Shown here: one piece after another, positions 13,831 to 56,336 of the stretch
How positions within the stretch are numbered: position 1 is the stretch's first letter
Layout of the letters: each line of letters starts with the position of its first letter
Source: a virus
Length of the DNA stretch: 64,000 nucleotides
Virus record (IMG/VR): IMGVR_UViG_3300046532_004322
Span: 1-64,000 of that record
Direction: 5' to 3' (one strand)
Position numbers and translations under genes: made by a program
The notes under the pieces: model-generated
The model's input: the letters and a program-made list of their open reading frames with translations, nothing else
Database searches by the model: none
What the model was told of the DNA's origin: nothing

Positions 13831-13845
13831 ATTAATAATGGTTTT

Positions 13846-15464: not shown

Positions 15465-15465
15465 T

Positions 15466-16979: not shown

Positions 16980-16987
16980 ATATACGC

Positions 16988-22454: not shown

Positions 22455-23476
22455 AATAAATTGTAATCGTGATTATACATTTTTTCTACCAAGCCCATAA
22501 AAGAACATTTTGGATTCCAGCCTAATTCACTAATTGCTAATGCAGGGTTTCCTTGTAATAAATTTACTTCTGCTGGTCTATAATATTCAGGATTGACTTT
22601 TACTAAAACATTATCTCTGTCGTCAGTAAATTTCTCATCAACATCCTTTCCATGAGAAGAAACTGTTATTCCTGCAACCTGAAAACATGTAGTTATAAAA
22701 TCCCTAACAGTATTGACTTCTCCACTTGATAAGACATACTCTTGGGGATGCTCTTGGTTAAGCATAAGCCAAATGCCTTCGATGAAATCTTCAGCATCAC
22801 TCCAGTCTCTCTCTGCATTCATATTTCCAACTTCAAGTGGGATTATTTCAGTGCCATTCTCTATTGATTTTTTAATTTTCGCAATTGTTGATGTTATTTT
22901 TCTAGTAACAAATTCATAACCTCTCCTTGTACCTTCGTGATTAAACAGGAAGCCTTGAATTGCATAAATTCCATAAGACTCCCTGTATACCTTAACTAGG
23001 TGCCTTGCTGATGCTTTTGATGCACCGTAAGGGCTTCTTGGTCTAAGAGGATGCTTTTCATCTTGAGGTGAATAAATAACATCACCAAATTCTTCAGAAG
23101 ACCCTGCATTATAAAATCTACATTTAGGATGATGCGTTCTAATGGATTCAAGTATATCTAAAACTGAAGTAGAATTAACTTCGAAAGTTTGCTTTGGAAA
23201 GTCCCAACTAGAACCAACAAAACTTTGGGCGGCGAAATTAATAAAATAATCTGGTTTGTATTTTAAGATGGATTGTTCTATGCTATGAGAATCAGATAGG
23301 TCAATATTTACAAGTTTAAAACGATTGCTATTAATATGATTAATGTTAACATGATTTGTAACACTAAGTCTTCTTACCCCTCCATAAATTTTATAATCAG
23401 TATTATTGAGAAGATAGTCTACCATGAAACTTCCATCTTGGCCTGAAATTCCAGTCGTTATTATAGTTTTATTCAT
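22451..23476 (-). CDS. gmd: GDP-mannose 4,6-dehydratase
   Basis: TGISGQDGS, AAQSFV, SSEEFG, PRSPYGASK, LFNHE, FVTRKI, RPAEV. Confidence 0.96.
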   Translation of the reverse strand: MNKTIITTGISGQDGSFMVDYLLNNTDYKIYGGVRRLSVTNHVNINHINSNRFKLVNIDLSDSHSIEQSILKYKPDYFINFAAQSFVGSSWDFPKQTFEVNSTSVLDILESIRTHHPKCRFYNAGSSEEFGDVIYSPQDEKHPLRPRSPYGASKASARHLVKVYRESYGIYAIQGFLFNHEGTRRGYEFVTRKITSTIAKIKKSIENGTEIIPLEVGNMNAERDWSDAEDFIEGIWLMLNQEHPQEYVLSSGEVNTVRDFITTCFQVAGITVSSHGKDVDEKFTDDRDNVLVKVNPEYYRPAEVNLLQGNPALAISELGWNPKCSFMGLVEKMYNHDYNLL

Positions 23477-23508
23477 ACATAAGCATGTTAAAGATTAAAT
23501 TGGAAAAA

Positions 23509-24285
23509 TCAACAAATAGAAGCTTTAAAATAATTATCTTTTATTTTTTCTAGTTTCCATTTTTTTTTAACATCAGATTTAAGCCAAGGATCTCTTTTGC
23601 AAAACAGCCTATTTGATTCTATTTTATGAGATAAAGCTTTGTTAATGTTTTTATATTCAACGTTTCCGAATTCTTGTTGGTTTACTATTCTTTCTAGGTC
23701 TTCGTTTGGTATATGATAAATATCTTTAGGCTTTATATATTTCCGCTTAACTCCTGAATTACTCATGCGATTATAAAGATCGTCATCATCAAATCCGTAG
23801 GATACTATTCTTTCGTTGTATCCATTTATGTTATCAAAGGCTTGTCGAAAAAAATATACCTGACCGTTAAGGTGGTTTTCATTTTCGTTTCTTGCGAGCT
23901 TCCAAGACCCTCTAAAGAAACTATTTGAACTAAGCCGATAAAGATCTAAGAAATTGGAAGGAAGGATTATGTCGGAATCAAGCTTTAGAACCTTGTCGAA
24001 AGTGGTTTGTGAAACGGCAAGATTGTAAGCCCATGACAATACCCACCTGAACATTTTGTCAACTCTAATGAGCTTAATTCTAGAATCATTCAAAAGCTCA
24101 ATATTTTTAATTAAGGGCTTTTGAGAAGACCAATCGACAATTATTATTTCATCTATGTTTTCGACTTTTAACCAATATCTTAAGGAGGATAGTAAATTTC
24201 TGTTTCTATCCATGCAACAGCATGCAATTGACGTCCCTTCCTTACTGGCAGCTTTCACAAGAATCGCCGCTTTTAGAAGCTTCAA
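23509..24285 (-). CDS. GT2/GT7-like glycosyltransferase; start uncertain
   Basis: CMDR, IIIVDWSS, AYNLA, KLDSD (DxD), and GYNERIVSYGFDDDDLYNR (GT7 C-terminal WGxEDDD-like). Confidence 0.85.
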   Translation of the reverse strand: MKLLKAAILVKAASKEGTSIACCCMDRNRNLLSSLRYWLKVENIDEIIIVDWSSQKPLIKNIELLNDSRIKLIRVDKMFRWVLSWAYNLAVSQTTFDKVLKLDSDIILPSNFLDLYRLSSNSFFRGSWKLARNENENHLNGQVYFFRQAFDNINGYNERIVSYGFDDDDLYNRMSNSGVKRKYIKPKDIYHIPNEDLERIVNQQEFGNVEYKNINKALSHKIESNRLFCKRDPWLKSDVKKKWKLEKIKDNYFKASIC

Positions 24286-41902: not shown

Positions 41903-44900
41903 TTAATTTATTTGATCAGGCCTTATATTAAGCCTTCCTTCAAGCGCCCTAGCCATAACTTCACTTATAATTGGATCGAGGAGCATATTTTTTAATTGAT
42001 CGAACATTACTGGACCTAAAGCCTGAGAGAACATTTCGGTATTGAAATCCAATGTAACATTTCCAGTTATTCCATGGTTAAAAATTACAGACTCCAATTC
42101 GTTCTTCATTGCCTTAGGTAATTCATTTATTGATTCAGAGACCTTATTGACCCCTTCTGTTGCCGCTTGATCTATTTGATTTACCTTTCCATCTTTTCCT
42201 ACTTCATGAATAGTATGGTCCGCCCCAGGAGTGGACGCAATATACGGGCTCGGCGGCATGACATTTTCTTGAGTATCGTGAATAAACGGACCGCCCTGAA
42301 CTGGACTCCGAAGAGACCCGCCCCACGATGTTGCTCTTCGAGAGCCTGAATTTGAAACAGGGGAGAACGTCGGCATCGTGGGGGCGGTGACGGAGGGTTG
42401 ATTGATTGCCTGGGTTCCTTTGTCGAACCAAGCCTTCCAGCTCTCCTTCATTTTCTCGATCTCAAGTACAAACCCCTTCTCATCTTTTGCCCACTGGGGT
42501 ATATTTAATTGCCCGTAACCACTGACGTCAACATCCGCTTGTTTTAAGAAATCGCGCTGTTCGGGCTTTAACATCTGCGTAACTCCATCGTTATCCCCCG
42601 CTTTTCTAACCATTTTGTCTTGTAATATCGAATCGATTTGAACATTCTCGATATTGTCATAACTTTTTAATAAAGCTTCGATATTGTCTTTCAAAATTCC
42701 AAAGTTGTCTTGTTGGGAAGCTTGTCGTTGCCCGTAACCAGGTGCAAGGTGGGGCGAGTCGGTGCCAAGAACGGGGGGCATATCCCCTATGCCCATATTT
42801 TCGAATTTAGTTGCCTCTATGGGCCAAAGACCAGCCGAAGGGGCATTACCTTTATTCTTTAGTTTCGTAAAATGAGGCAGACTTGCCACCCGATTTTGTT
42901 GCTCTCTGATTATTTTTGTAGCCAATTTTATCGTATCATTCTTTGGTGTCAATGTCGAAAGCCAACGCGGGTCCTCTCCCTTGTCTGCAAGGTTCTGCGT
43001 CCGCCAGTTCGGCTTTGATTTTAGGAGTTCTAGTTTTCTTGCTAAATTTGAAACTAAATCATTGGTGAGTATGTCACCGTTAGCGTCCTTCGCCTCTTCA
43101 CTCAATGCAGCCAGAAAATGCAGGTTTTTTGTTTGCGCAGGTAGTTTCTCTAGATCCGTCCCTGCTTTATTAAGCGGGTCGTCACTCCCTGCAAACTGAC
43201 TTATTGGACCTGCTTTAGGATCGCCCAAGTGCCATTTTGTCACTTGCTTGCGATTACGCTTCCAATAGGGGTCCCTTACCTCCTGAAACCCCGTTTGCCC
43301 GCTTTTCCCTCTTACACCTGAAACCTTAACTGGGGCAAAAACTGTCGGTGTCTCGCGTTTTTTCTTAGCCTCAGCCGCACTAGCAGCTCTATCGCCTGCA
43401 GAGTCGGTCTTCTCGCCCAAATCTTGTTTTACCGAATCTCCTAACATGGAACTTATTGAATTCGCTATTCCAGTAGCTATTCCACTTTGAGAAGTCGTGC
43501 TTATATTTATCCCGCTATTACTAGCTAATTTGAAAAGACTTTCAGTATTATCGGCAATACTAAGAGTGGATGCTAGCATTTTTCCATTATCAGACAAAGA
43601 ATCAGAAAGTTCGCCTCCATATCCAATATTATTAAACTGACTCTTCTGCATCTGATCTACCGAGTCTATATTGGCAAACGCAACTTTTTTTCTTTTTTCG
43701 AGAAAGTCGATAAGCGGATCTCCATCAGGTCCGATGTCCTTATCCATCTTTTCTATATTTCTATTAATCTTAGCTTTTCTCTGATCCAGTCCAGTCCTCC
43801 CAGTCAATCCCGATAAATTTATTCCTAACGATTCCTCAAGAAAAGCTTGAGATTGCGAATTAATTGCTTCGTTCTCTTTTTCCGAAACGGTCCTACCTAA
43901 TCCTTTAACAAATTTAGATCTTTCTCCCTTGCGATTCAATCCCCCAGTTCTTATCGCATCGTTTAACTTCGTCGTATCATTAGTGCCTAAAATAGAACTT
44001 CCCATTTTGTTGATAAATTTGGCATCCAATTCCAGCATTTTATTTCTATTTTCTGATTTTAATTGATTTAATTGGGCGGAAAATACTGCACCGTTTCTCA
44101 GTTCTATATTTCTCATGTCAGTCTGTATCCTGTTGGAATATTCATTACTACTATTAAGAGTTTCAAGAAATCCCTTTATTTCTACTAGTGTAACGTTACC
44201 ATCTGCATTTTGCTTCATGAAATCAGTGAATTTATTTGTAAATTCTTCGCGCTCAGGACGCTCTTTCTTTTCGTTTTCTTTTTTCTCTCTTTCTAAAAAT
44301 GTCCCTTCATCCTTCTCTGCACTCAATCCTTTATCCTTAAGTATTTGATTCATGTCAATTAATGAATTTGGATCGGCGCCCTTAAGTAATCTTTCCATCA
44401 TTGAGCTTCTGAGTTCTTGATTATTTGAATCTCTAGCTATAATATTTTGAAGAGTATTTGATCTTGATACCTTTTCTCTTTCAGTTATAGCACCAACAGA
44501 GGATAATATATTATTTTTTCCTGAAAAATCCCGTTCTATGGTATCCCTATTTATCGACCTTACTCGTTCAACGGTTTCCCTATTTTTATTAAAATCTTCA
44601 ATAGCAAAATTTAACAACCTGACTTCTTTAATTAAAGATTTTAACTCATCTTCAATATTCTTTACTTTTGTCGCGTTTTTAGAGTTTGAATCAGCGTTGC
44701 TATCCAAGCTTTCTATTAATTTTTCCTGAGTTTGTATTTGTTCCTTCATCATTAACAAATTCTCTTTGGAAAGATTGTTTTCTGAAGGATCTATTATCCC
44801 CTCAACTATTTTATCAGCGGCAGCACTCTGCCCTCCATCTCTCAAAGCCTTTATGAAACTACTATTATTAAGTTTGTCTTTAGCATTCTTCTCCTCAAGA

Positions 44901-47900
44901 TCACTTAAGTGGCCTTTCATAATACTGGCATTTTCCAAATCATCTTTGTCTCCATATAGCAACTTATTTTGATCGACACCTTTTCCGAATCTATTTCCTC
45001 GAATAGATCCCCTTAATATATCAAGCCTAGCTTCCTCCAAATTGCCAAAATCTTTCTGCATACTTGTCAAGGTCTCTCTTGCCGACTCTACTGCCGCCTG
45101 ATCTTGAAAATCCTTACTAAACTCATCAAATGTTTGATCAAAACTTCCACCAGTTCGTGCTGCTAATACTTTCTTCCTATCAAATTCTTCTTGAGTTATC
45201 TCAGCTACGCTTTTTGTATTGGCTTGTTTGAAATTTGCTTTTAATTTCGAAGCAAAGTCTTTTGATTCCGATTCGTCCCATCTTGCACTGTCTAATTTTG
45301 CAGTCATGCCTCCCGCCCCAAACCAACTCGTCGGATCCATCCCCTCAGTCACTCCCGCCCCACTTCTCCATTGTGAAACCGCCGAAGATAAGCCAGCCGA
45401 GGGAAGAAATAGACCATAATCCACAAGCATCTCCCCTGCGGACGACATTACACTTTTTTCCCTTTCTATTCCCGCCGATACGGCAGTTCCTATTTCCAGT
45501 GCATTCTTAGCGTTCTTGGCATTATTTTCAGCATCTTTAAGTACTCCTGATAAAGCCTCTATTTGATCCGAGAAGCTCATTGTTCCATTGGTTATACTAT
45601 TTAATTTGTCAATTACGGAAGGATCAACAATTGAAGCTATTGATTCACTCATGAGCTTTTGACCTTCTTTTATTTTTGTAATATCTCCAGATTTAAATGC
45701 ATCATTTAATCCTTGCACTCCTTCCCTGTATTTAATCATGGCTTGGAGGTCTTTTAATTTTTCGTCTAATTTATCTTTTCCTTTTGAAAGGTCTTCCCCT
45801 ATATCAGATAAAGCTTTGTTGTCTTTCCAATTCATCGCCGAATCCGCAGCTCCGTATGCCGCGCCACCAAGAGCACCAAAAGCCATTCCTGGCGTCCCAA
45901 GCATTGCTCCAAATCCAGCGCCCATCAGAGCACTTGAACCCATATTCTTAACAGCTCCTCCGAGACTCCCTCTGCCTTTCGCTGTTTGTCCAGCGTCAAT
46001 TTGTTGTGAAATCATAGGCCCCATAAACATAGCTGCCATAGTCATTTGCGACATGCTCGCGTCCGTTTTCGCTTTTTGTTTCTCCCATTTGTCCCTTCTT
46101 TTTGCGAATTTATTTTTCGATTCGGAATATTTTTTACCGCGACTCGCTGGTATCGTCCGACCACCTGGCAGCTTACGACTTGGTCTATAGTTAGGGTTAA
46201 TATTCCTTGTGGGTTGCGAGCCAGGCCTTAAGCCTTTAAGGAAACCCATTCCAAACCTAAAATTAGGAACAAAACCTTCACTCATACCATGAGCTTTAGG
46301 ATCTATTCCCATTGCCATTGATCTATTTATTCCCTGACCCAAACCAAACCTTTCATCCACCCTATTTGTTATCGCAAAACCTCCAGGATTAAGCCTATGA
46401 TCTACAAGCTTCGGACTTCTTTCCATCCTTATCGCGCTAGAAGGAATACCCCTTTTCCTTAGGGCGGACTTTTCTCTATTATATGCATTTTCCAATGGAT
46501 TTGAAAAGCTTGGAATATATCCTCCAGAGAAAAACCCTTGAAAGATATCGTCCATTTTATCTAAATGGAGTTTCTCGGAAATTTTTTGTAGTTTTTGCGA
46601 TTTATCTACAGCCCAAACGAAACCAGCTTCGTCCACTCGCCTATTTGCCGCCTTACGCTTCCTAGTGCCACTTAAAAAACCATCTTTATTAAATCTTCTA
46701 AACTTTCTTCCTGGACGGGCAAAATTCGGAACAAAACCTCCAGCTGCTCCACCTTTTAATTTTGACGCATGACGGAGTATTTTAAGCTTTTGTTGCGTAT
46801 TGCCTATGTTATCCATTGATCTTGCCATATAATCATTTTGATCTTGAAATTTTTTGGGATTGTTCCTGAGTATTAATGCTTGATCTTGTAATAATTTTGC
46901 AATTTCTTTTTCTCCTATCTCACCCCTTCTAATACCATCTATGTAGGATTGTGTAAGATTGTTTTTTCCAGGATGAGGACTTCCCGCTCCAGGATGGCGA
47001 TTCCCTCCCCCTCTGGCAAAGTTGGGAATAAAACCACCAGCTCTACCTCGACGGGGAGTACTTGATTTTTTTTTATGCCCATATGGGTTAGCTTTTATTT
47101 CAGCAGCTCTCTTAAGAGCTTTCATCGCATCATCTATAAAACTACTGGTGTAAGGAGTAACGCCTCCTCGCTTCTGCCTTCCTATTCCTCGCCTGCGTTC
47201 TTTCTTAGCTTTTTCAAGAATCTCGGCTTCAGATAAATCTGGAAATTTCGCTCGCAAATCTTTTAAAGCATCAACTCCTGCTTTATGCCCTGAATCTACA
47301 GGCATTGGTCGATCCGAGCGTCTATAAATATGACTTTTATCACTAAGACCTTTCTCCCTAAGACCTTTCGTGATTTCCGCGTCAGACATTCTTGGGTTTA
47401 CCGCCTTTTTTATCTCAAACGCCCTTTTAAAATCTCTTGATTCCTGATTGTTTTCAAATTTTCGTTCGTTAGAGTAAACCATAACTCCGCTCCCTGTTTG
47501 AAAAATTTTATCTTGATATTTATGCCTTTCAGGCTGTCCATAATAATTCTTGCCCTTCCCTTTATCAAAAACAGTATCCCATTCTTTCATCCCCTTGTTG
47601 AATTTTACCCTTTGCTCAGCTTTTTTCTTGTCGCGAACAAACTTCTTTTGTCTCTTTAAATATTTTTTGTGGGTTTTTTTGACTCTCTTTTGAAATTCCG
47701 CATTTCGTTTACTTATATGCTTACTCATGAAATACGCCATAATAGCAGCAGGAGGAAGACTCATAGCTGCCCCACCAAGTATTCCTCCAGCTGTAGATAA
47801 AGCACTTCCTCCAGCGACCATTTTCAAAAAAGCACCGAATCCTAATTTTGACCCAACAGCTCCTCCTACTCCGACCCCTGTTCCAACCCCTGTTCCAACT

Positions 47901-50900
47901 CCAACCCCTGTTCCAACCCCTGTTCCAACTCCTACCCCTGTTCCAACCCCTGTTCCAACTCCTACCCCTGTCCCAATTAATGAAGCTAAATACTTCCCGC
48001 CCAAAACCCCTCCTCCAAATAATCCCGCTCCAATACCTGTAAGGGCTAATCCTTTTCCTTTCCCTTTCATCATTGACTTCATAAACGCAGCTCCACTTGA
48101 CCCCCATTCACCTGCGTGACTGCCAGCCATACGCAAGTTCTGCATCCCGCTTGATCCAGCTTCACCCGCCATCTGACCCATAAATCCCAGACCTTTCATC
48201 CCAAGCTTGCCAGTATCTTCAGCTCTTCTCATTCCCCAATTGAGACTCCTTGATCCTAAGTCTCCCATTCTATTCCAAATTGTTTTTTTCGACCCCTGCC
48301 TAAGCTTGCTTTTCCTTACCTCCTTCATCCTTCTCTTTTGCAACTCGTTCATAGCTTTTTCGCTACCACCAGAACTCTTGTCGCCTTTAGTATCATAGCC
48401 TGGTATGATTTTTCCAAATATACTTTTGGCATTCAAATTTGAAAAACTACCAATTCCCTTAATTTTATCAGATAACCAGCTATTAAATTTATCCTTAATC
48501 CCAACCTTTCCCTTATTCTTTTCACGATAACCCGATAATTGATCCTTCGTATTCATGAAAGCCAATTGTAACTGAGTTATTAATCCTGGTTTTCCAGGTT
48601 TTCTTCTAGAATCCCCTTCTGATTTGCGACCAAAAAGATTACTATCTATTTCAAATGGCGGAGTTAGCTTAAACATATTTTTTAAACTTTCCCATTTCTC
48701 CTTTCGCCTTTTCGACCTATCTCTCCCCCTTCTTTTCCTTTTGAGTCTTGCAGCCTCAAGATTCCTTCCTTTATTCCTTTTGTGTCGAGCCTTTTCCTCC
48801 AAACGTTCTTCTTCAATCATTGTAGACATCTTGGATGTTGAGGTATCGTATATTTGATCTGCACCATAAGCGTCAAATATATATCTAGCTTGATTAGCTC
48901 CCGCCTTAATACCCCTCATTACTCCGCCCCCAACCGTTTTTCCTCCATGATAAATATCAGAAAGAACATTTGCACCTCCAGAAATTAACTTTCCAGCAGA
49001 GTCCATAAATACGTGTTTTCCAGCCTTGGCTCTTCCTGCGATTTTCTTATTATCTTTTTCTTTCTTCGCTAAATGATCCCTACGTTTGATATCTTCTGGG
49101 TTTAAAGGAGACTGGTATTTGTAATTTGCCTTGTTTAACCGCCTTAGTTCAGCAAGTTCCTTATTCGCTCTGTTTGCTATATTTTTTTGGTGCTGAATCC
49201 TTTCTTTTTTCTTTTCTTGAGATGTTTTTCTTTCTTCTGGAGTCATCGAATGCCAGTTATACAATCTAGCCAGCTTTCCACCCCTCGTTTCTTTTCCATC
49301 TTTCCCTCCATACCCCATAATCTTGAAAAATCTTTCTCCCAATGATAGTTTTCCCCTTTGAGCCTCATTGGCTAAGGTCGTCGCATCTTGAGCGCCCCTC
49401 TTCCCACTGAAAGCTCTCGCATTTGGCCCTTGAGCGACATGGCTCACCATCAAGCCTTTCACTAATTCATCTATGCCTATATTTTGCGCCCCAGTTATTC
49501 CGCCTTTTAGTAAATTATCAAACCCGCTTCTCGTAATTTGCGGAATTCCGTGTTTTAAATCCTTTTTTCCCCAATTTATAAAATCAAATAATCCAGCAGG
49601 CGTTCTTGTTTTGAAATCAGCATTATTCGAATTCCCAGAACCAATAAGTCTCTTGGACATTCCTAATACCTCATTTTTCATAGCCATTTTTTGAGGATCT
49701 ATAAAAACGTTCCCAAAAAGACCCCTGATCTTTCCAGATAGTCCTTCATTATATAAGGAAATGGATTTTATTCTATCGTTTAGTCGATCCAGCATTTTTC
49801 CCTGCAAGTCTTTATTGTTTGAAATTCCTAGCTGAATATGCTTATTGTTTGAAGGATTAGGTATTGCATTTCGCATTCCTGGCGAGCCAGGGGCATTTTC
49901 TACTGGACCCAAAAATCTTACCGATCCCTTTTTATTATCTATGTCCACTTGAATATCTTTACTTCTCAAGTCATTAATAAATCCCTCCGTCCCTTTTCCT
50001 CCACGAAGAATTTCTTTTTCTAATAAATCATCAATAAATCCATACCCGCTCGCTTGCGTTCCCCCGCTTGTTTTTCCGCCTGCAAAATTTGGTATATATC
50101 CTGACGCACCATTATAATTATATCTGGCGTCTTCTTTATATGCGGACGCCCAAGGGTCGATTTTTGAAGAATTTGATGAAACCTTAGACTCTAAAGAAGC
50201 GACTCTTGACTCCAGGCTTGATACCCTTGCGGTATTCCCCGCCGATGAAACCACTCCAACCCGTCCTGCGAACCCAGCTGTTTTAATATTTGAATCTAAA
50301 TTAATTGGCGATTTAGTTCTGGAATTTAAGCGTGGATTATAATACCAATTATCCCCCGCTCTTTGATAAACTGGTTGTGCTATTCCACCCACTACCCTAG
50401 TTGTTCTTGCCCCTCTTTGCTCTTGAACCTTCATGCTTTGAGCTTTCCTATAAGCCCTTGTACCCTTTCCTCCACTCTTCCGTGTCGGACCCTTTCCTTT
50501 CCGCCTCCAATGCATCGCACCTTTTGCAAAATTAGGAACGAACCCGTCGTCCATATTTGGAATAAATCCTTCGCTCATGTTTGCAATAGCTTTATCCGTA
50601 TGACCTAATTGCTTAAGTCTTGATGTTGCGGAAGTCCACCCATGCAGCGAACCCATTCCTGCTCTTGTTCGTTTAAAGCCAGCTTTAATATGCCCTTTTT
50701 CTAGTTCGGCTCGATCTTCCGCCCCCGATTCTATCCGTTTGTTTGCGTTATGTACAAGATTACTCTTGCCCTTCTCTCCAGTTTTATTATATAGAGTGAA
50801 TATTTTTTTCACCATACTAGCTCTTGAATCCTTATTGTCCGATATTTTTGCATCTGCAAATGTAGTATTATATCCGAACAAATCTCGCAGGCTTTTTCCT

Positions 50901-53900
50901 GGGGCTTGAACTATATCAAATGTTGCACTATTCGTCGTGAAGGCAGTATTTTTTGAAATAGATTTTAATCCACTTTCAAAAACATGCCCACTTAACACTC
51001 CGATATGCTGATCAATATCTTTAGATAAGCTTGCGTGTGGCGAAGGAAGGGGTTGCTTTGGTCCAAGTTTTGGGCCGATTAATTTTTTAGCCGTTCTTCC
51101 CACCATAGCATTGAACACACGCCTGGAATCCGTTTTTATTTTGTCTTGTACAGTCGGCCCATCTTGAGGTCTTTTTATTCCTTCTACGTTAAATTTTACT
51201 CTCCTTTCCCTACCTCCTTTTTTTCTTGGACCAGCCCAATTAACCTGCCTTCTGTAACCTTCCTGAGGAACAAGCATTGTTGCTAAATTTCTTGCATCTA
51301 AAGTTTCGAATGTAGAATTTCTAGCTTTCATCTTGCTCTTGTCCTTAGATTCTAGGTTTGTCAGCTCGGAAGCAGTCCTACGTTTTCCTTGAGAATCAAA
51401 TTCTCCGTATACCGATGCTCTTCCTGCGCTCGTTTTACTTGCGCCTCCTCTATATTCGTTTAATAGTCTTAGCGACTGTTCGTCCAACATGGATTCGGTT
51501 ACCTTAACCCCCCCATCCCGAGTTTTGCCATGCGAAATGAATGAGTTTTCGTCTTTAAATTGGCTCCAAATGTTACCATTTGCCTTTTTTCCAGAATCTA
51601 TAAGCGGCCCACCAGCCTCCGTTCTATACTTAACATTTAATCCTCCAGCAGCATTTATAACATCTCTAGTTAATTTCGTATCTTTAGCTGTTATTAAATC
51701 TATACCAGTCTTAAATAAACTTGTTGCTCCCAAATCTATTTTCTCAGACATTCCATTGCTATGATTTACTTTCGGATTTGATAAATATAAATTAGCGGCT
51801 TTTTTCAGAACTCCCAATGTATTTTGTTTTCTTTTCCCCTTTACTTCAAAATGTCTTCCTCCAGCCAATAAATCAAAATATTTATTTCCTTTCAATAGGT
51901 TGACTGATTCTTTTCCTTTCAACCCAAATTCTCCCCTACTCCTCTTTAAATGTCTTCTAGCTTCGCTTTCCGCCCATAACCCCTTTATTCCACCCACTGC
52001 ATTTTGAAACTGTCCCTCTTGCCAATGAATATCTTTTGTACTTTTTGGATCAACCCATTTTTTAGTTAAAGAATCAATGGAAGTCAAGGCTCCTTTCCCG
52101 TTTCCAGAACTCAAAAGGGACCCGTATATTCCATTGGTCATAAGCTTTTTTCTTACGCCAGTTATGTTTTTATACTTTGGATTTATTATATATTTTTCTT
52201 TCCCAGCATTTTTCCCTATTCCGATTTCTTTTTCAAATATAGAATTAACTCCTAAATTAGGAGGCCCGTCTCTCCACTTTGGATGCCCGTCTTTCCATCT
52301 TGATTTCGCATTTTTCCCTGCCAAAATACGATGAGCTTTGCTTCCCATTTCTGCAGAAGTTTTTGAGAGCTTTGTAACTCTTAGATTTCCAGAAAATACA
52401 TCACTACTATCAGAAAATTTTGAAATTGGACTGGCTCCCCCCAGTCTCCACCCTAACTCGGAAGATTTTGCAGACATCTTCATCAATCCTTTTGAGAAAT
52501 TCGGAACAAATCCTTCGGAAGCAGTGATTCTCCTTGCTCCCCTTGGCATTCCGTATCTTTTAATCATTGATCTATTAAATATTGCCGTTCCTCCAGACCC
52601 CCTAAAATTAGGAACCTTCCATTCTCCAGTATGAGCAACTACACTTCGCCTTTTCCCTCCACCCATCGCATGATTTCTCAACACTACAGGCCTATCTCCT
52701 CTTCTTGCACCACCTACATTATTTCTTATTGATCTTTGTTCTCTATTTACCGAAGGGAGAAATCCTGACGCCATGCCCAAAGTTTTGCGACCTCGTCTTT
52801 TGTTCCAAGGCCTGCCCGCTGGCACAAAGCCCGCCTCGGAAGCTCCTACACCCCTTAGGGAAGTCCCAGCGGCTATTCTTTTGACCAAAGCTTCCTGCTT
52901 CATTCTTTCAACAGTCTCTTGCTTTATTAATTTTAATATAATTTTTTGTTGCTTCGCGGTATTCCCAGAAGCAGCCATTATCTTTTGGTAAACTCCGCTA
53001 TTTGATGCAAGGATAGAACCAATGGACGCTTGAAGGCTTTTTTGTCTTTTGGATTCTGAATTCATCCCAATAAGGTCTGAAAAAGCTTCTCTTGCGAACT
53101 TTGCTACAAGTACAAATATCTTAAGAAAAGCCGCTGTAATAATTGCAAATCCTGGACCAGCCAAGAATTTACCAAATCCCTTTACGATATTTTTTGCAAA
53201 ATCGCTACCCGTATTTTCATCCAAAGCTTTATTTAACCACTCAGCTAATTTTCCAACCACTTTTAAAATCGACTTAAAGCTATCACTTACCGCAAGCTCT
53301 CCAAGCCTTGCCGCCAATTCTTTAGCACTTAAAGATGTTTGGGTAAATATAGCACTTAGGGTCTTATTAAGTTCCTCGTTTCTTTTTATAGCTTCGTCAG
53401 TTGTTCCGTTTGCCGTTTTTAATGCTTTGTCGTAAATTGAATAACCATCTCCCAAGTCTTGAATCAAAGCTTGAAGATTTTGAATTTGAAATACCCCAGC
53501 TATTTGTTCGGAAGTAAATGCTTTTTGTGAATCCGATAGCGTTTTGTATACTTTTGCATAATCTTTAAGTATTGCAATACCAGATCTAAAATTACCATTC
53601 AAGTCTTTTGTAGAGACTCCAATTTCTTCAAGAGCTTCCCTGACCCTACTTCTTTTTATCCTTGTAAATATACTCTTGAATCCATTTCCTATTACGGAAC
53701 CACCTCTAGCGGTTCTTTGTTGAACTGCAGTTACAATTGAAGCGAGTTCATTAAATGAAACCCCAGAAGATTGAGCAACTGCACCAGCTCTAGAGATAGC
53801 TTCTGCCAAATCTTTTGACGAAACCGCAAAAGCTGCATCTACATTAGCCATCCTGTTTACAATTTGCTCGTGAGTTATCCCTTCCTTATTAAAAGAGTTA

Positions 53901-54436
53901 ATTGCAGCGGTTAAGGTTTCTGTGGACTTTACAGCACTTAATCCAGAAAGTCTTGATAGAATTAATGCAGAATTAACCCTGTCAAGAGTTTCTTGCGCTC
54001 CCAAACCTTGCCTAGCTAATTCAACGGCTGATTCGGATACGGTCTCAAAACTTGTTGCGGTATTTTTCGCTACACCAAACAAGCCTTGACCAAATTTCAT
54101 CATTTCCCTGTTTGTCGCTTCCATCACGACCTGAATATCCTTCAGTGCCTTTTCCACCTCTGCAGCGGATCTAACCATAGTTGCAAAGGCATTTGATATT
54201 CCATTAATTATTCCTACCGCAGCTCCAAACGCAAATACACGAGCCGCAGAAGCATCCATTGATTTCTGAAATTCACTTGCAGCATTCGTTATTTTTCCAA
54301 GGGGCTGAACAAATCCTCTTGTGTTCAGCTTCGGAGACATTTGCATCCGATTAACCACTCTTTGTGCAGACACGGCTTGGCCGACAATACTGCCATGGAA
54401 ACCCACTGCTGCGGTTGGAATATTTACTACACTCAT
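41903..54436 (-). CDS. Giant tape-measure protein (4177 aa)
   Basis: TP901-type N-terminal core (ELARQG, LAEAISRAG, RGGSVIGNGFKSIFTR, EQIAGVFQ), Gly/Ala TM-like segments, coiled coils, and position after the tube and chaperone genes. Confidence 0.93.
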   Translation of the reverse strand: MSVVNIPTAAVGFHGSIVGQAVSAQRVVNRMQMSPKLNTRGFVQPLGKITNAASEFQKSMDASAARVFAFGAAVGIINGISNAFATMVRSAAEVEKALKDIQVVMEATNREMMKFGQGLFGVAKNTATSFETVSESAVELARQGLGAQETLDRVNSALILSRLSGLSAVKSTETLTAAINSFNKEGITHEQIVNRMANVDAAFAVSSKDLAEAISRAGAVAQSSGVSFNELASIVTAVQQRTARGGSVIGNGFKSIFTRIKRSRVREALEEIGVSTKDLNGNFRSGIAILKDYAKVYKTLSDSQKAFTSEQIAGVFQIQNLQALIQDLGDGYSIYDKALKTANGTTDEAIKRNEELNKTLSAIFTQTSLSAKELAARLGELAVSDSFKSILKVVGKLAEWLNKALDENTGSDFAKNIVKGFGKFLAGPGFAIITAAFLKIFVLVAKFAREAFSDLIGMNSESKRQKSLQASIGSILASNSGVYQKIMAASGNTAKQQKIILKLIKQETVERMKQEALVKRIAAGTSLRGVGASEAGFVPAGRPWNKRRGRKTLGMASGFLPSVNREQRSIRNNVGGARRGDRPVVLRNHAMGGGKRRSVVAHTGEWKVPNFRGSGGTAIFNRSMIKRYGMPRGARRITASEGFVPNFSKGLMKMSAKSSELGWRLGGASPISKFSDSSDVFSGNLRVTKLSKTSAEMGSKAHRILAGKNAKSRWKDGHPKWRDGPPNLGVNSIFEKEIGIGKNAGKEKYIINPKYKNITGVRKKLMTNGIYGSLLSSGNGKGALTSIDSLTKKWVDPKSTKDIHWQEGQFQNAVGGIKGLWAESEARRHLKRSRGEFGLKGKESVNLLKGNKYFDLLAGGRHFEVKGKRKQNTLGVLKKAANLYLSNPKVNHSNGMSEKIDLGATSLFKTGIDLITAKDTKLTRDVINAAGGLNVKYRTEAGGPLIDSGKKANGNIWSQFKDENSFISHGKTRDGGVKVTESMLDEQSLRLLNEYRGGASKTSAGRASVYGEFDSQGKRRTASELTNLESKDKSKMKARNSTFETLDARNLATMLVPQEGYRRQVNWAGPRKKGGRERRVKFNVEGIKRPQDGPTVQDKIKTDSRRVFNAMVGRTAKKLIGPKLGPKQPLPSPHASLSKDIDQHIGVLSGHVFESGLKSISKNTAFTTNSATFDIVQAPGKSLRDLFGYNTTFADAKISDNKDSRASMVKKIFTLYNKTGEKGKSNLVHNANKRIESGAEDRAELEKGHIKAGFKRTRAGMGSLHGWTSATSRLKQLGHTDKAIANMSEGFIPNMDDGFVPNFAKGAMHWRRKGKGPTRKSGGKGTRAYRKAQSMKVQEQRGARTTRVVGGIAQPVYQRAGDNWYYNPRLNSRTKSPINLDSNIKTAGFAGRVGVVSSAGNTARVSSLESRVASLESKVSSNSSKIDPWASAYKEDARYNYNGASGYIPNFAGGKTSGGTQASGYGFIDDLLEKEILRGGKGTEGFINDLRSKDIQVDIDNKKGSVRFLGPVENAPGSPGMRNAIPNPSNNKHIQLGISNNKDLQGKMLDRLNDRIKSISLYNEGLSGKIRGLFGNVFIDPQKMAMKNEVLGMSKRLIGSGNSNNADFKTRTPAGLFDFINWGKKDLKHGIPQITRSGFDNLLKGGITGAQNIGIDELVKGLMVSHVAQGPNARAFSGKRGAQDATTLANEAQRGKLSLGERFFKIMGYGGKDGKETRGGKLARLYNWHSMTPEERKTSQEKKKERIQHQKNIANRANKELAELRRLNKANYKYQSPLNPEDIKRRDHLAKKEKDNKKIAGRAKAGKHVFMDSAGKLISGGANVLSDIYHGGKTVGGGVMRGIKAGANQARYIFDAYGADQIYDTSTSKMSTMIEEERLEEKARHKRNKGRNLEAARLKRKRRGRDRSKRRKEKWESLKNMFKLTPPFEIDSNLFGRKSEGDSRRKPGKPGLITQLQLAFMNTKDQLSGYREKNKGKVGIKDKFNSWLSDKIKGIGSFSNLNAKSIFGKIIPGYDTKGDKSSGGSEKAMNELQKRRMKEVRKSKLRQGSKKTIWNRMGDLGSRSLNWGMRRAEDTGKLGMKGLGFMGQMAGEAGSSGMQNLRMAGSHAGEWGSSGAAFMKSMMKGKGKGLALTGIGAGLFGGGVLGGKYLASLIGTGVGVGTGVGTGVGVGTGVGTGVGVGTGVGTGVGVGGAVGSKLGFGAFLKMVAGGSALSTAGGILGGAAMSLPPAAIMAYFMSKHISKRNAEFQKRVKKTHKKYLKRQKKFVRDKKKAEQRVKFNKGMKEWDTVFDKGKGKNYYGQPERHKYQDKIFQTGSGVMVYSNERKFENNQESRDFKRAFEIKKAVNPRMSDAEITKGLREKGLSDKSHIYRRSDRPMPVDSGHKAGVDALKDLRAKFPDLSEAEILEKAKKERRRGIGRQKRGGVTPYTSSFIDDAMKALKRAAEIKANPYGHKKKSSTPRRGRAGGFIPNFARGGGNRHPGAGSPHPGKNNLTQSYIDGIRRGEIGEKEIAKLLQDQALILRNNPKKFQDQNDYMARSMDNIGNTQQKLKILRHASKLKGGAAGGFVPNFARPGRKFRRFNKDGFLSGTRKRKAANRRVDEAGFVWAVDKSQKLQKISEKLHLDKMDDIFQGFFSGGYIPSFSNPLENAYNREKSALRKRGIPSSAIRMERSPKLVDHRLNPGGFAITNRVDERFGLGQGINRSMAMGIDPKAHGMSEGFVPNFRFGMGFLKGLRPGSQPTRNINPNYRPSRKLPGGRTIPASRGKKYSESKNKFAKRRDKWEKQKAKTDASMSQMTMAAMFMGPMISQQIDAGQTAKGRGSLGGAVKNMGSSALMGAGFGAMLGTPGMAFGALGGAAYGAADSAMNWKDNKALSDIGEDLSKGKDKLDEKLKDLQAMIKYREGVQGLNDAFKSGDITKIKEGQKLMSESIASIVDPSVIDKLNSITNGTMSFSDQIEALSGVLKDAENNAKNAKNALEIGTAVSAGIEREKSVMSSAGEMLVDYGLFLPSAGLSSAVSQWRSGAGVTEGMDPTSWFGAGGMTAKLDSARWDESESKDFASKLKANFKQANTKSVAEITQEEFDRKKVLAARTGGSFDQTFDEFSKDFQDQAAVESARETLTSMQKDFGNLEEARLDILRGSIRGNRFGKGVDQNKLLYGDKDDLENASIMKGHLSDLEEKNAKDKLNNSSFIKALRDGGQSAAADKIVEGIIDPSENNLSKENLLMMKEQIQTQEKLIESLDSNADSNSKNATKVKNIEDELKSLIKEVRLLNFAIEDFNKNRETVERVRSINRDTIERDFSGKNNILSSVGAITEREKVSRSNTLQNIIARDSNNQELRSSMMERLLKGADPNSLIDMNQILKDKGLSAEKDEGTFLEREKKENEKKERPEREEFTNKFTDFMKQNADGNVTLVEIKGFLETLNSSNEYSNRIQTDMRNIELRNGAVFSAQLNQLKSENRNKMLELDAKFINKMGSSILGTNDTTKLNDAIRTGGLNRKGERSKFVKGLGRTVSEKENEAINSQSQAFLEESLGINLSGLTGRTGLDQRKAKINRNIEKMDKDIGPDGDPLIDFLEKRKKVAFANIDSVDQMQKSQFNNIGYGGELSDSLSDNGKMLASTLSIADNTESLFKLASNSGINISTTSQSGIATGIANSISSMLGDSVKQDLGEKTDSAGDRAASAAEAKKKRETPTVFAPVKVSGVRGKSGQTGFQEVRDPYWKRNRKQVTKWHLGDPKAGPISQFAGSDDPLNKAGTDLEKLPAQTKNLHFLAALSEEAKDANGDILTNDLVSNLARKLELLKSKPNWRTQNLADKGEDPRWLSTLTPKNDTIKLATKIIREQQNRVASLPHFTKLKNKGNAPSAGLWPIEATKFENMGIGDMPPVLGTDSPHLAPGYGQRQASQQDNFGILKDNIEALLKSYDNIENVQIDSILQDKMVRKAGDNDGVTQMLKPEQRDFLKQADVDVSGYGQLNIPQWAKDEKGFVLEIEKMKESWKAWFDKGTQAINQPSVTAPTMPTFSPVSNSGSRRATSWGGSLRSPVQGGPFIHDTQENVMPPSPYIASTPGADHTIHEVGKDGKVNQIDQAATEGVNKVSESINELPKAMKNELESVIFNHGITGNVTLDFNTEMFSQALGPVMFDQLKNMLLDPIISEVMARALEGRLNIRPDQIN
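47868..47974 (-). repeat. 30-bp tandem repeat (~3.5 copies) encoding GTGVGTGVGV within the TMP
   Basis: actcc(g/a/t)acccctgttccaacccctgttcca repeated on the + strand. Confidence 0.92.
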
Positions 54437-54466: not shown

Positions 54467-55468
54467 TTATTTTTCGTGAATTCGAATAAAATCATCCATA
54501 TCAAGAGAACCGTCCTTTCCTTCTTCTGTGGCAACATCGTGTAAATCTTTCGTCCCAGAAACATCCAGGCCAGCCTCAACCATGTCTTCTTTCGAGGCTC
54601 CCATATAACTATATCCGCTCGAAGCATTTAATCTTTCCTTGGAATCTTGTACTCTTTTGGATTTCTTATCGGAATCTTGCATGAAGTCCATTATCTCCTT
54701 TGCGTTGTCCCTAATTTTTTCAGGTATTTCCTTATTTTTGAAAACATTTAAAAACATTTTCGCATAATTCAATACGTTTATCTGGTAATAACTTAATTCA
54801 AAATGATTTCTATTGAAAAACTTCGAGACATTGGATCCAAATAAATTCAATATAGAAGTAAAAAATGGCTCTATTGATATTTGTCTTACATTATCTGTTG
54901 AAAATTCGAGTAATGCTTCATTATATATATTGTATAACGTAGCTAACTCAGACCTGTCCAGCTCTTCAAATTCTTCATCTGTGAAAAATCTTTCCGTTAA
55001 CTTTTCATCCTTAAAGAAACAACGAGATATAAAGCTTTCATTTGATTTTTTTCCTGCATATTCTTCTGCAGTATTCCTTATTAAATGTCCTCTTTTTTCC
55101 TCACTTATCCTTATTCCTTTTTCCAGCTTCTCTATGCTTTTTTCCATAGATTTTCTTTGAGCTTTTATTATAAGATTCGAGACTGTTTTTTTTAAGTTTT
55201 TTATCTCTTCTCTTTTCTTTGAGGATTCTTCTTCTTCTTCTTTTGTCCATGTTTTTTCCTTGTCTAAAAAATCAAGTAATTCCTTTTCGGTCATTACCCC
55301 CATCTTCTTTGCCTTATTGAGATACCTGTCATGCATATCCCTTAAGAATCCCATATCATTAAGATCCGTATGCTTAATGAAAACAGGGGTTCCCGAGAAT
55401 TCAGTTCTCGAAAACCCCTGCATTAACTTAAGAAAAATATTTTCTAAATTTTTATTGTCATTTTGCAT
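54467..55468 (-). CDS. Putative tail assembly chaperone
   Basis: Immediately upstream of the TMP; helical and charged; EEFEELD..L pattern. Confidence 0.55.
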   Translation of the reverse strand: MQNDNKNLENIFLKLMQGFSRTEFSGTPVFIKHTDLNDMGFLRDMHDRYLNKAKKMGVMTEKELLDFLDKEKTWTKEEEEESSKKREEIKNLKKTVSNLIIKAQRKSMEKSIEKLEKGIRISEEKRGHLIRNTAEEYAGKKSNESFISRCFFKDEKLTERFFTDEEFEELDRSELATLYNIYNEALLEFSTDNVRQISIEPFFTSILNLFGSNVSKFFNRNHFELSYYQINVLNYAKMFLNVFKNKEIPEKIRDNAKEIMDFMQDSDKKSKRVQDSKERLNASSGYSYMGASKEDMVEAGLDVSGTKDLHDVATEEGKDGSLDMDDFIRIHEK

Positions 55469-56336
55469 CGACTAACTCTTCTTCGCTAGCCTCTTCATCT
55501 TCGGAATCTTCTTCATCCTCAAGGTCTTCTTCCTCTTGAGTCTTTTCCATTTCTTTCATAAGCTCTTCCAGGCCTTCTTTTTCTTGAGATCCGCTTATAT
55601 ACCAAATCGTTAATATTGAAGATATTTTATCTATTGATCTTGAGTAAATTTCATCATCAATTTCTTCAAGATCTACATACTTTTCATACCTTTCTTCGAA
55701 ACTCGTTCCTTCAAACATCGGCTCGATGGGGGCCTTTTCGTCCTCCCCTTCGGAGAAATAACTTAAATGCAAGACATACCACATTATGGTTCTGTTCCTA
55801 GCCTTTACATCTGCAGTATGATCAAACAATGAATTTTGCAACATTTCATACTCAGTTAATTCCTTTCTTATTTCAGCCATTTCTCTTGTAGCTTGTTCCA
55901 GTTTCTCTTGCTGTCTTTCCGATAACTTTCCTTTGTTATCTCCAAAGACCGAAAACTCTTGAACCTCAAGTTGTTTTTGATGCATTCTGAAAACCAAGTC
56001 GGAATAAAGCTTCTGTTCTTTTTCCGTCCACACTCCACCGTTTGATCCATATTGCTTTGCGAGCATGGCTTTAGTCAGGAGCCCCATCTTAATATACTTA
56101 TTAAGCTCCAAGCTGTAGAACATGTCTCCGTCCTCTAGCTGGCTCCTGGTGGGCTTTTTAATGCATATGTTGAAGGGGACCTCCTTTTTGGTGTTAACGG
56201 TCTCCTTGGTCACTACCGTATCCATCTTTCCAGTCTCCTTGTTCTTACGCTTCTTTTTCTTTTCTATCGTTTCCTCAACATCTCTCTCGATGTTCACTTG
56301 AAACGAATACAATACCTTTTTTTCATCAATGTCCAT
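55458..56336 (-). CDS. Putative tail assembly chaperone
   Basis: ICIKKPTRSQL motif and an acidic tail; lies between the tube and TMP genes. Confidence 0.6.
   Translation of the reverse strand: MDIDEKKVLYSFQVNIERDVEETIEKKKKRKNKETGKMDTVVTKETVNTKKEVPFNICIKKPTRSQLEDGDMFYSLELNKYIKMGLLTKAMLAKQYGSNGGVWTEKEQKLYSDLVFRMHQKQLEVQEFSVFGDNKGKLSERQQEKLEQATREMAEIRKELTEYEMLQNSLFDHTADVKARNRTIMWYVLHLSYFSEGEDEKAPIEPMFEGTSFEERYEKYVDLEEIDDEIYSRSIDKISSILTIWYISGSQEKEGLEELMKEMEKTQEEEDLEDEEDSEDEEASEEELVDAK

What the first reader, a model, noticed from the sequence alone, without database searches (positions are those of the whole stretch)
46259..52843. Giant TMP carries a ~2200-aa basic insert segmented by a recurring G[FY][IV]PNF motif: a possible cargo polyprotein
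Seen: about 11 copies or variants. SEAGFVPA (~52815), ASGFLPS (~52750), WKVPNF (~52605), SEGFVPNFS (~52495), SEGFIPNMDDGFVPNFA (tandem, ~50525), ASGYIPNFAGG (~50076), AGGFIPNFARGG (~47010), AGGFVPNFAR (~46716), SGGYIPSFS (~46502), SEGFVPNFR (~46259). They delimit mutually unrelated, Lys/Arg-rich modules of about 70-1000 aa between a normal TP901-type TMP N-terminus and the TM/coiled-coil C-terminal part. The copies differ at synonymous positions, so conservation is at the protein level. Known: TMPs are often proteolytically processed and ejected into the cell, and phage polyvalent proteins carry effector domains. Inference: the motif is a protease-cleavage or packaging signal that releases separate effectors at infection, and modules may be swapped between motifs.
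Basis: partly seen in the sequence, partly recalled or inferred. Interest (0 to 1): 0.82.

Follow-up and report, generated by a model that had tools for sequence, protein, structure and literature searches.

The report
Tape measure protein with peptide-fenced cassettes
The 4,177-residue tail "ruler" protein of this uncultured marine phage carries a 2,190-residue middle made of separately folding modules, two of them nuclease-like, each fenced by the same short peptide (G-F/Y-I/V-P-N-F); about a thousand related rulers share the peptide and swap modules at it, but whether the protein is cut there is still untested.

Summary
ORF 41903-54436 (-) is a 4,177-aa TP901/SPbeta-type tape measure protein (TMP). 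It holds 6 strict, 8 relaxed and 11 loose copies of G[FY][IV]PNF, against 0 in 2,000 shuffles. The copies differ at synonymous sites.

The peptide marks a large uncultured TMP family: more than 100 viral and metagenome loci, and 1,137 cluster representatives for one flanked module. In about 110 loci it occurs 443 times in TMPs and never in flanking genes.

Family layout: a constant N-terminal domain (~540 aa), a cassette region, then a hydrophobic stretch and a ~1,100-1,450-aa C-terminal part. The cassette region is ~430 aa typically and 2,190 aa here. Homology blocks between relatives end at the peptide, so cassettes are exchanged there.

AlphaFold places the peptides in low-confidence linkers between confident folds. 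Two modules keep an invariant PD-(D/E)xK signature.

Cleavage at the peptide is the leading mechanism (precedents: T5 pb2, lambda gpH), but nothing here shows it. A phage subtilase is not a constant partner.

This scan has already found the same family on at least six other genomes, with the same open question. I rate it a new variant of a known kind (TMPs with embedded domains).

The parts
41903..54436 (-). Tape measure protein gene, 4,177 aa
   Evidence: Single ORF. PF10145 at E 1.1e-29. Ten PHROG TMP families match aa ~15-480.
53495..54070 (-). PhageMin_Tail (PF10145) core of the conserved N-terminal domain (aa 123-314). The whole N part, aa 1-~540, is 72-82% identical in close relatives.
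46259..52831 (-). Cassette region (aa 536-2726): basic, fenced by the junction peptide. 2,191 aa here, against a family median of ~430 aa.
52520..52759 (-). Bookend module M1 (aa 560-639), a small alpha/beta domain with junction peptides on both sides (GFLPS at 558, GFVPNF at 642) and an internal KVPNF strand
   Evidence: AlphaFold pLDDT >90 for aa 570-639, dropping to ~62 at the peptide. Conserved in about 58 loci.
52496..52513 (-). Junction peptide copy GFVPNF (aa 642-647), the M1/module A boundary
   Evidence: HSPs to relatives end at aa 647-650.
51647..52489 (-). Module A (aa 650-930), PD-(D/E)xK nuclease-like
   Evidence: pLDDT 80-97. E823, D855, E864 and K866 are invariant in 10/10 homologues of 30-45% identity. 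Weak structural match to the FAN1 VRR-nuc region, Z 5.5-5.6. ESM Atlas leads Tox-REase-3/-7 at 0.86-0.87. No Pfam hit.
51626..51652 (-). Decayed junction peptide AAGGLNVKY (aa 929-937) at the end of module A. It is intact in relatives (GYVPNF, GFIPNF) and half decayed in the closest one (GLSPTF).
50696..51394 (-). Module B (aa ~1015-1247), second PD-(D/E)xK-like module. In relatives it sits in other positions, separated from A by junction peptides.
   Evidence: E1154 and D1174 15/15, D1195 15/16, K1197 14/16. pLDDT 55-91. Positions in relatives.
50528..50569 (-). Tandem junction peptides GFIPNM-DD-GFVPNF (aa 1290-1303) in a disordered stretch
   Evidence: pLDDT 22-33.
50084..50101 (-). Junction peptide GYIPNF (aa 1446-1451), preceded by a short heptad stretch
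   Evidence: The weak Pfam Phage_tail_NK hit to aa 1401-1449 (E 0.0027, below cut-off) reflects the heptad segment only.
47036..50083 (-). Orphan basic region (aa 1452-2467). It has no junction peptide inside and only one weak homologue (P0002).
47714..48049 (-). Gly-rich hydrophobic stretch inside the orphan region (aa 2130-2241), with a 30-bp tandem repeat (47864-47976, 3.8 copies) that encodes a G/T/V repeat
47018..47035 (-). Junction peptide GFIPNF (aa 2468-2473)
46721..46738 (-). Junction peptide GFVPNF (aa 2567-2572). HSPs to relatives start here.
46277..46504 (-). Bookend module M8 (aa 2645-2720), flanked by GYIPSF (46505-46522) and GFVPNF (46259-46276). It is the most widespread module of the family.
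   Evidence: 1,137 cluster representatives at E<=0.001, often 2-8 copies per protein. AlphaFold core pLDDT 74-85 with low-confidence flanks. No fold match.
45827..46045 (-). Gly/Ala/Met-rich hydrophobic segment after the last junction peptide (aa 2798-2870), conserved in the family
41906..46258 (-). C-terminal part (aa 2727-4177, 1,451 aa), free of the junction peptide, with balanced charge and a conserved last ~70 aa. Presumed ruler.
   Evidence: The ruler role is an inference.
54467..56336 (-). Two paralogous ~300-aa genes directly upstream of the TMP (54467-55468 and 55458-56336), at the position of tail assembly chaperones
   Evidence: One BLAST cluster, two members per locus, in 104 loci. 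No Pfam, PHROG or PDB match. The chaperone role is inferred from position only.

Best explanation
The ORF is the tape measure protein (TMP) of an uncultured marine long-tailed phage. The family has a constant N-terminal TP901-type domain and a constant hydrophobic-plus-ruler C-terminal part. Between them lies a cassette region built of independently folding modules.

In this phage the cassette region has grown to ~2,190 aa. It holds two bookend modules (M1, M8), two PD-(D/E)xK nuclease-like modules, small modules, and ~1,000 aa of orphan basic sequence. Every module boundary carries the exposed linker peptide [AS]-x-G-[FY]-[IV]-P-N-F-[AS].

Shown: the architecture, the family-wide conservation of the peptide at protein level, its position in linkers between folds, and cassette exchange at the peptide.

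Inferred: the cassettes travel in or with the tail lumen and leave it ahead of the DNA, as TMPs do. The peptide is the place where the chain is processed (cut) during tail maturation or after ejection, so that the modules act as separate proteins in the host. The same peptide gives a safe in-frame joint for exchanging cassettes.
For: - **Motif statistics.** 6-11 copies against ~0 expected, with synonymous codon differences between copies.
- **Family.** All 12 giant relatives but one carry 3-10 copies. 149 representatives have a median of 4 and a maximum of 12 copies. There are 443 copies in 258,753 TMP residues and 0 in 343,000 residues of flanking genes. Within this 81-kb record the peptide occurs only in the TMP.
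- **Boundaries.** 30% of internal HSP ends lie within 3 aa of a peptide, against 1.7% for random positions. Relatives 73-74% identical in the N domain carry a different cassette straight after M1. Modules A and B are adjacent here but separated and reordered in relatives; M1 and M8 are duplicated in some.
- **Lengths.** In 64 complete TMPs the coefficient of variation is 0.07 for the N part, 0.38 for the C part and 1.03 for the cassette region.
- **Structure.** M1, A and B are confident folds. The peptide copies fall in pLDDT dips of 62 and 22-33. The M8 core is folded and its flanks are not.
- **Enzyme-like cargo.** The PD-(D/E)xK residues are invariant.
- **Precedent.** T5 pb2 is cut after R1127, between its hydrophobic stretch and its peptidase domain, and the fragment stays in the tail (PMC10038345). 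Lambda gpH is cut to gpH* and gpHC by an unknown catalyst at an unknown site (PMC12617516).
- **Own inference.** I/V at P4, F at P1 and a small P1' would suit a subtilisin- or chymotrypsin-like enzyme.
Against: - No cleavage product, neo-terminus or protease has been observed.
- The phage's own S8 subtilase is missing from two relatives rated 100% complete that carry the peptide.
- About 9-11 positions are conserved on both sides. That is long for a protease site and typical of a docking peptide.
- One copy has decayed with the gene intact.
- The N-side copy runs within 2-3 residues into the first helix of M1 and M8.
- No natural gene split at the peptide was seen. The one broken TMP (L057) is a frameshift at an A10 run.
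- Delivery of the cassettes into the host is assumed from general TMP behaviour, not tested.
Confidence: 0.4

Rival explanations
1. The peptide is a docking motif that is not cut. It binds a conserved partner by strand addition: the inner wall of the tail tube, the two chaperone-position paralogues upstream, a bookend module, or the neighbouring TMP chains. This keeps the cassettes ordered or soluble during tail assembly and ejection.
For: Conservation extends over 9-11 positions on both sides of the core, as in docking peptides. The copies are exposed, low-confidence linkers that could become ordered on binding. Inside M1 a related KVPNF segment is a confident strand of the fold, which shows the sequence can pack as a strand. 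The genes around the TMP, including the two upstream paralogues, are conserved in nearly all loci, so a constant partner exists.
Against: The peptide is absent from the ~1,450-aa C-terminal part and from the N domain, where tube or chaperone contacts would also be needed. Spacing is irregular and domain-sized (median 169 aa) with no convincing register. Loci of the same TMP family that lack the peptide (L041, L082, L104) appear to share the conserved upstream gene set, which was found in 104 loci. I did not check those three loci one by one.
Confidence: 0.3
2. The peptide is only a neutral, flexible joint. It persists because cassettes that are exchanged between phages come with it, as a recombination scar or safe in-frame junction, and nothing recognises it biochemically.
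For: Homology blocks end at the peptide. Cassettes are reordered and duplicated. A decayed copy is tolerated.
Against: Copies differ at synonymous sites, so DNA identity between copies is low (about 13 of 18 bases) and selection acts on the protein. Near-invariance of N at +4 (73 of 83), F at +5 (69 of 83) and small residues at -2 across more than 1,000 diverged proteins is far more than a passive linker needs.
Confidence: 0.12
3. The whole 4,177 aa is ruler. The phage has a tail of about 630 nm, and the peptide is a periodic structural contact inside an ordinary, very long TMP.
For: TMP length generally sets tail length (PMC1796659). From my own memory, unchecked: TMPs of about 5,000 aa with very long tails exist in Thermus phages.
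Against: AlphaFold predicts globular alpha/beta domains, not a continuous helix, for aa 560-930 and 1040-1250. The cassette region varies about tenfold among syntenic relatives while the N and C parts are nearly constant. Spacing is irregular.
Confidence: 0.08

Closest known systems
TP901-1 / SPbeta-type tape measure proteins (Pfam PF10145), including TMPs with embedded enzymes (SPbeta YomI, TM4 TMP, T5 pb2)
   Same: It has the PF10145 N-terminal domain. Its best cultured-phage matches are SPbeta-like TMPs (28% identity over aa 87-456). It has hydrophobic segments and sits among the tail genes. Globular functional domains inside a TMP are known (PMC1796659, PMC10038345).
   Different: The known embedded domains are one or two wall hydrolases without a common fence. 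Here there is a string of unrelated modules, each bounded by one conserved peptide, and two of them are nuclease-like rather than muralytic. No cultured phage in the collection holds module M8. No paper in the library contains the motif strings in this context.
Proteolytic maturation of TMPs: T5 pb2 (cut after R1127) and lambda gpH to gpH* + gpHC
   Same: A TMP is cut between modules during tail maturation, and the fragment stays with the tail (PMC10038345, PMC12617516). This is the working model proposed for the junction peptide.
   Different: Those are single cuts near the C-terminus, at sites unlike G[FY][IV]PNF. Here up to 12 putative sites lie in the middle of the protein, and no cut has been observed.
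Polyvalent proteins of phages and conjugative elements (Iyer et al. 2017, PMC5512222)
   Same: Many unrelated modules, some enzyme-like, sit in one huge virion-associated polypeptide. They vary between relatives and are thought to enter the host with the DNA.
   Different: Pfam detects none of the domains typical of polyvalent proteins. The carrier is a TMP. A single conserved peptide at every junction is not, to my knowledge, described for polyvalent proteins.
Viral polyproteins with one consensus cleavage site at each junction
   Same: One short consensus recurs at domain junctions irrespective of the domains. Conserved modules are flanked by the site on both sides, as embedded proteases are.
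   Different: No protease was identified. M1 and M8 (~80 aa) match no peptidase by sequence or fold. Polyprotein processing of a tail protein would be new for tailed phages.

Membership tests
TP901-1/SPbeta-type tape measure protein (PF10145) | PhageMin_Tail domain above the Pfam gathering score | tested here: met
   104.2 bits against a cut-off of 33.2, aa 123-314. 111.6 bits in the genome search. Ten PHROG TMP families match.
TP901-1/SPbeta-type tape measure protein (PF10145) | Longest gene of the tail module, between tube/chaperone genes and distal tail genes | tested here: inconclusive
   The gene order is conserved in about 100 loci and the terminase lies upstream. The neighbours themselves have no Pfam, PHROG or PDB match, so their roles rest on position only.
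TP901-1/SPbeta-type tape measure protein (PF10145) | Protein length sets tail length | not testable with these tools
   This needs EM of virions. No cultured member was found.
PD-(D/E)xK nuclease superfamily (modules A and B) | Conserved E ... D ... (D/E)-x-K catalytic signature | tested here: met
   Module A: E823, D855, E864, K866 in 10/10 homologues. Module B: E1154 and D1174 in 15/15, D1195 in 15/16, K1197 in 14/16.
PD-(D/E)xK nuclease superfamily (modules A and B) | Significant profile or fold match to a known member | tested here: inconclusive
   No Pfam hit at E<=1. FAN1 VRR-nuc region Z 5.5-5.6, below the level that stands out. ESM Atlas Tox-REase-3/-7 at 0.86-0.87, which counts as a lead only.
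PD-(D/E)xK nuclease superfamily (modules A and B) | Nuclease activity | not testable with these tools
   Needs an enzyme assay.
Polyvalent proteins (Iyer et al. 2017) | Several distinct conflict-type domains in one polypeptide of a phage or plasmid | tested here: inconclusive
   There are several distinct folded modules, two of them nuclease-like. No Pfam family is detected in aa 520-4177.
Viral polyprotein | One consensus site at the domain junctions | tested here: met
Viral polyprotein | A cognate protease, embedded or separate | tested here: inconclusive
   The S8 subtilase is present in this genome and in G001, but absent from complete G002 and G003. M1 and M8 show no peptidase likeness.
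Viral polyprotein | Cleavage products observed | not testable with these tools
   Needs proteomics of virions or expressed fragments.

The most novel reading that the evidence does not exclude
The junction peptide is a true processing site, cut by a bookend module, by the chain itself or by a host enzyme. That would make this TMP family the first polyprotein of tailed phages. One tail gene would deliver a changeable set of separate, ready-made proteins into the host ahead of the DNA, here including two nucleases. It would also give the first defined sequence rule for TMP cleavage, whose site and catalyst are still unknown even in lambda.
Probability: 0.35. Interest if true: 0.85.

Novelty: new variant of a known kind. 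Interest (0 to 1): 0.62.

Why it matters
TMPs leave the tail first and help open the cell envelope. That they can carry wall hydrolases is known. A large, abundant, uncultured aquatic phage group that uses the TMP as a carrier for exchangeable cassettes, fenced by one peptide, would widen the idea of what a virion delivers besides DNA.

The peptide also gives a concrete handle on an old open question. [quoted passage not shown] Here a defined 6-10-residue candidate site recurs thousands of times and can be tested with peptides, expressed fragments or metaproteomes.

If the peptide is instead a docking motif, it points to a still unknown partner that handles non-ruler cargo inside a tail.

Tried and rejected
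- **Subtilase as cognate protease.** The phage-encoded S8 subtilase (L002:10717-12015) is present in G001 but absent from two relatives rated 100% complete whose TMPs carry the peptide. I rejected it as an obligate partner.
- **Prohead-protease site.** The peptide is absent from all other ORFs of the 81-kb record and from 1,310 flanking ORFs of about 110 loci.
- **M8 homotrimer.** A complex prediction with three copies of peptide-M8-peptide gave no verdict (score 0.00). It counts neither for nor against binding.
- **M1 and M8 as homologues.** hhalign aligns only the peptide and the start of the next helix, 25 columns. My early impression of homology is withdrawn.
- **Fold searches.** The 781-aa model gave nothing by Foldseek and only Z below 7 by VIA. 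M8 gave at best Z 2.6 and nothing in BFVD.
- **Profile searches against PDB sequences.** Nothing for M1, M8, the upstream paralogue or the 421-aa upstream protein.
- **Family libraries.** Pfam on ten TMP segments gave nothing above threshold. PHROGs and Pfam gave nothing on the neighbours.
- **Free-standing homologues of the cassettes.** None for aa 648-1290. One 100-aa fragment for aa 1449-2470.
- **Cultured relatives.** tblastn of M8 against 50,697 phage records found no match at E<=1. Megablast of 20 kb found none.
- **Literature.** A full-text search for the motif strings gave no relevant paper.
- **Periodicity of inter-peptide distances.** The only signal (about 46 aa) comes from the 75-83-aa module peak and is not a register.
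- **Hosts.** Only three MAG contigs of discordant phyla hold relatives, so no host could be inferred.
- **Natural split at the peptide.** The one candidate, L057, is a frameshift at an A10 run 37 aa after the last copy.

Full report
**Source and gene.** The window is the first 64 kb of an 81,328-bp IMG/VR virus record, rated 66% complete by CheckV. G+C is about 36%. The record also holds a T4-type large terminase, ribonucleotide reductase, PhoH, a GDP-sugar pathway and an S8 subtilase. ORF 41903-54436 on the minus strand encodes 4,177 aa. Its N-terminus is a TP901/SPbeta-type tape measure domain: PF10145 over aa 123-314 at E 1.1e-29, with ten PHROG TMP families over aa ~15-480. The best cultured matches are SPbeta-like TMPs, at 28% identity and over aa 87-456 only.

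**Observation.** G[FY][IV]PNF occurs 6 times, the relaxed form 8 times and the loosest form 11 times. The means over 2,000 shuffles are 0.0, 0.0015 and 0.31. The codons differ at synonymous positions. The fenced region, aa 536-2726, is 19.1% K+R and 9.1% D+E. Its segments show no mutual BLAST similarity. In the 81-kb record the peptide occurs only in this gene.

**Family.** A word-based search returned 13 giant TMPs of 2,328-5,756 aa. All but one carry 3-10 copies, with consensus (N)-[AFM]-[AS]-x-G-[FY]-[IV]-P-N-F-[A]. The G and P of that consensus were fixed by my search pattern.
- Scans of IMG/VR and of metagenomes gave more than 100 loci.
- The commonest form is 2,000-2,600 aa with four copies. 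These flank two ~80-aa modules: M1 (about aa 540-622) and M8 (about aa 890-965).
- A profile of M8 with its flanks found 1,137 cluster representatives at E<=0.001. Nearly all are proteins of 2,000-5,000 aa, often with 2-8 M8 stretches. These carry a median of 4 and a maximum of 12 strict copies.
- Over about 110 loci the peptide occurs 443 times in 258,753 TMP residues. It never occurs in 343,000 residues of flanking ORFs, apart from one frameshifted TMP piece.
- Variants exist: G[LI][VI]PN[FYL]A in L019 and a worn DIPNLA form in P0017.
- Only MAG contigs of discordant phyla hold relatives, so the host is unknown. No cultured phage has M8.

**Architecture.** Only four stretches of this protein are conserved across the family: aa 1-650, 2640-2730, about 2750-2950 and 4100-4177. 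Residues 1300-2550 are almost unique.
- In 64 complete TMPs the part before the first copy has a coefficient of variation of 0.07 (median 544 aa). The part after the last copy has 0.38 (median 1,172 aa). The part between has 1.03 (median 431 aa, up to 5,272).
- Total length follows the middle part (r = 0.83).
- Here the outer parts are ordinary (about 540 and 1,456 aa) and the middle is 2,190 aa.

**Cassette exchange.**
- Among pairs at most 70% identical, 30% of internal HSP ends fall within 3 aa of a peptide, against 1.7% of random positions. Part of this comes from the conserved M1 and M8 modules.
- Relatives 73-74% identical in the N domain (L086, L087) lose similarity at aa 647-650. After that point they carry a B-like module where this phage has module A.
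- A and B are adjacent here but separated by peptides and other modules in P0003-P0007. M1 is duplicated in P0003 and M8 in P0005/6.
- At the end of module A this phage has AAGGLNVKY and its closest relative has AAGGLSPTF, where others have intact copies. That is a decaying copy, so single copies are dispensable.

**Structure.** AlphaFold on aa 520-1300 with 35 aligned rows gave mean pLDDT 71.
- M1 (aa 570-639) scores above 90. Module A (aa 650-709 and 760-929) scores 80-97. Module B scores 55-91.
- The peptide at 640-650 lies in a dip to about 62. The tandem copy at 1290-1303 lies in a stretch at 22-33.
- M8 with 44 rows has a core at 74-85. Its N-side peptide is below 50 and its C-side peptide is about 62.
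- The peptides are therefore linkers between folds, not parts of one fold. M1 and M8 share only the peptide and the start of the next helix. Neither matches a known fold or a PDB sequence.

**Cargo.** Module A keeps E823, D855, E864 and K866 in 10 of 10 homologues. Module B keeps E1154 and D1174 (15/15), D1195 (15/16) and K1197 (14/16). This is the PD-(D/E)xK order, set on a predicted helix-strand-strand-strand core. Support from other tools is weak: FAN1 VRR-nuc Z 5.5-5.6, ESM Atlas Tox-REase leads at 0.86-0.87, and no Pfam hit. The 1,000-aa segment aa 1452-2467 is an orphan. It includes a Gly-rich hydrophobic stretch encoded by a 30-bp tandem repeat.

**Mechanism.** What is shown is a protein-level signal at module boundaries in exposed linkers, confined to TMPs. 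I rank cleavage first, at about 0.4.
- In favour: one consensus at every junction regardless of module. Conserved modules are flanked on both sides, as embedded proteases are in polyproteins.
- In favour: there are direct precedents. T5 pb2 is cut after R1127 between its hydrophobic stretch and its peptidase domain, and the fragment stays in the tail (PMC10038345). Lambda gpH is cut near its C-terminus by an unknown catalyst at an unknown site (PMC12617516).
- In favour, by my own inference: I/V at P4, F at P1 and a small P1' would suit a subtilisin- or chymotrypsin-like enzyme.
- Against: no product or protease is known. The phage's subtilase is not conserved. Conservation spans 9-11 positions. 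One copy has decayed.
- The main rival, at about 0.3, is an uncut docking peptide for a constant partner: the tube, the two upstream paralogues conserved in 104 loci, a bookend module or sister chains. A homotrimer prediction of M8 gave no verdict.
- A passive recombination joint (about 0.12) fits the exchange but not the strength of protein-level selection. An all-ruler reading (about 0.08) fits neither the predicted globular folds nor the length statistics.

**Comparison and novelty.** The protein is a member of the PF10145 TMP family. TMPs with embedded enzymes are known (PMC1796659, PMC10038345), and so are polyvalent proteins (PMC5512222). The new elements are the single fence peptide, the exchangeable string of modules in the middle of a TMP, and the nuclease-like rather than muralytic cargo. 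No paper in the library contains the motif strings in this sense.

This scan has already met the same family on at least six other genomes. The follow-up agents reached the same verdict: confirmed, swapping at the peptide, cutting and delivery untested.

Noticed in passing
L002:10717-12015 (G000 72716-74014, outside the window): A phage-encoded S8 subtilase (PF00082, E 8e-46) with an acidic repeat tail, next to a PhoH gene. It is also present in relative G001, but absent from complete relatives G002 and G003.
   Followed up: partly
window 54467-55468 and 55458-56336 (-): Two paralogous ~300-aa genes directly upstream of the TMP, overlapping by 11 bases. They are conserved as a pair in 104 related loci and have no Pfam, PHROG or PDB match. 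They stand where the tail assembly chaperone pair (G/GT) usually is, but as paralogues rather than a frameshift pair.
   Followed up: partly
window 47864-47976: A 30-bp tandem repeat (3.8 copies, 95% match) inside the TMP gene that encodes a G/T/V repeat within a hydrophobic Gly-rich stretch. The closest relative, P0002, has a similar G/T/I/S repeat. The repeat also creates spurious ORFs on both strands (47721-48107 and 47727-48119).
   Followed up: partly
L057:12900-12935: In one relative the TMP frame ends at an A10 run 37 aa after the last junction peptide, and the hydrophobic part continues in another frame. This is either a sequencing error or slippage. It is the only broken TMP seen.
   Followed up: partly
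P0017 (483 aa, metagenomic): Three tandem M8-like modules separated by worn versions of the peptide (DIPNLA, IPHF, LPHF). This shows that M8 can form arrays and that the peptide can degenerate in some branches.
   Followed up: no
window 20588-26680 and 8266-18466 (-): Class I ribonucleotide reductase large subunit (24242-26680), GDP-mannose 4,6-dehydratase (22451-23476), a glycosyltransferase (12778-13830), a sulfotransferase-like protein (10138-11142) and a nucleotidyltransferase (16988-18466). Together these form a sugar-modification cluster in a phage genome.
   Followed up: no
window 1409-3484 (-): A 691-aa protein with an N-terminal LysM domain (E 3e-6). It may be a wall-binding virion or lysis protein.
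   Followed up: no
window 62974-63927 / L002:975-2573 (-): A 532-aa protein between the presumed portal and head genes, with a weak, below-cut-off match to the Bacillus HBL helical family. It is probably a long helical scaffold-like protein.
   Followed up: no
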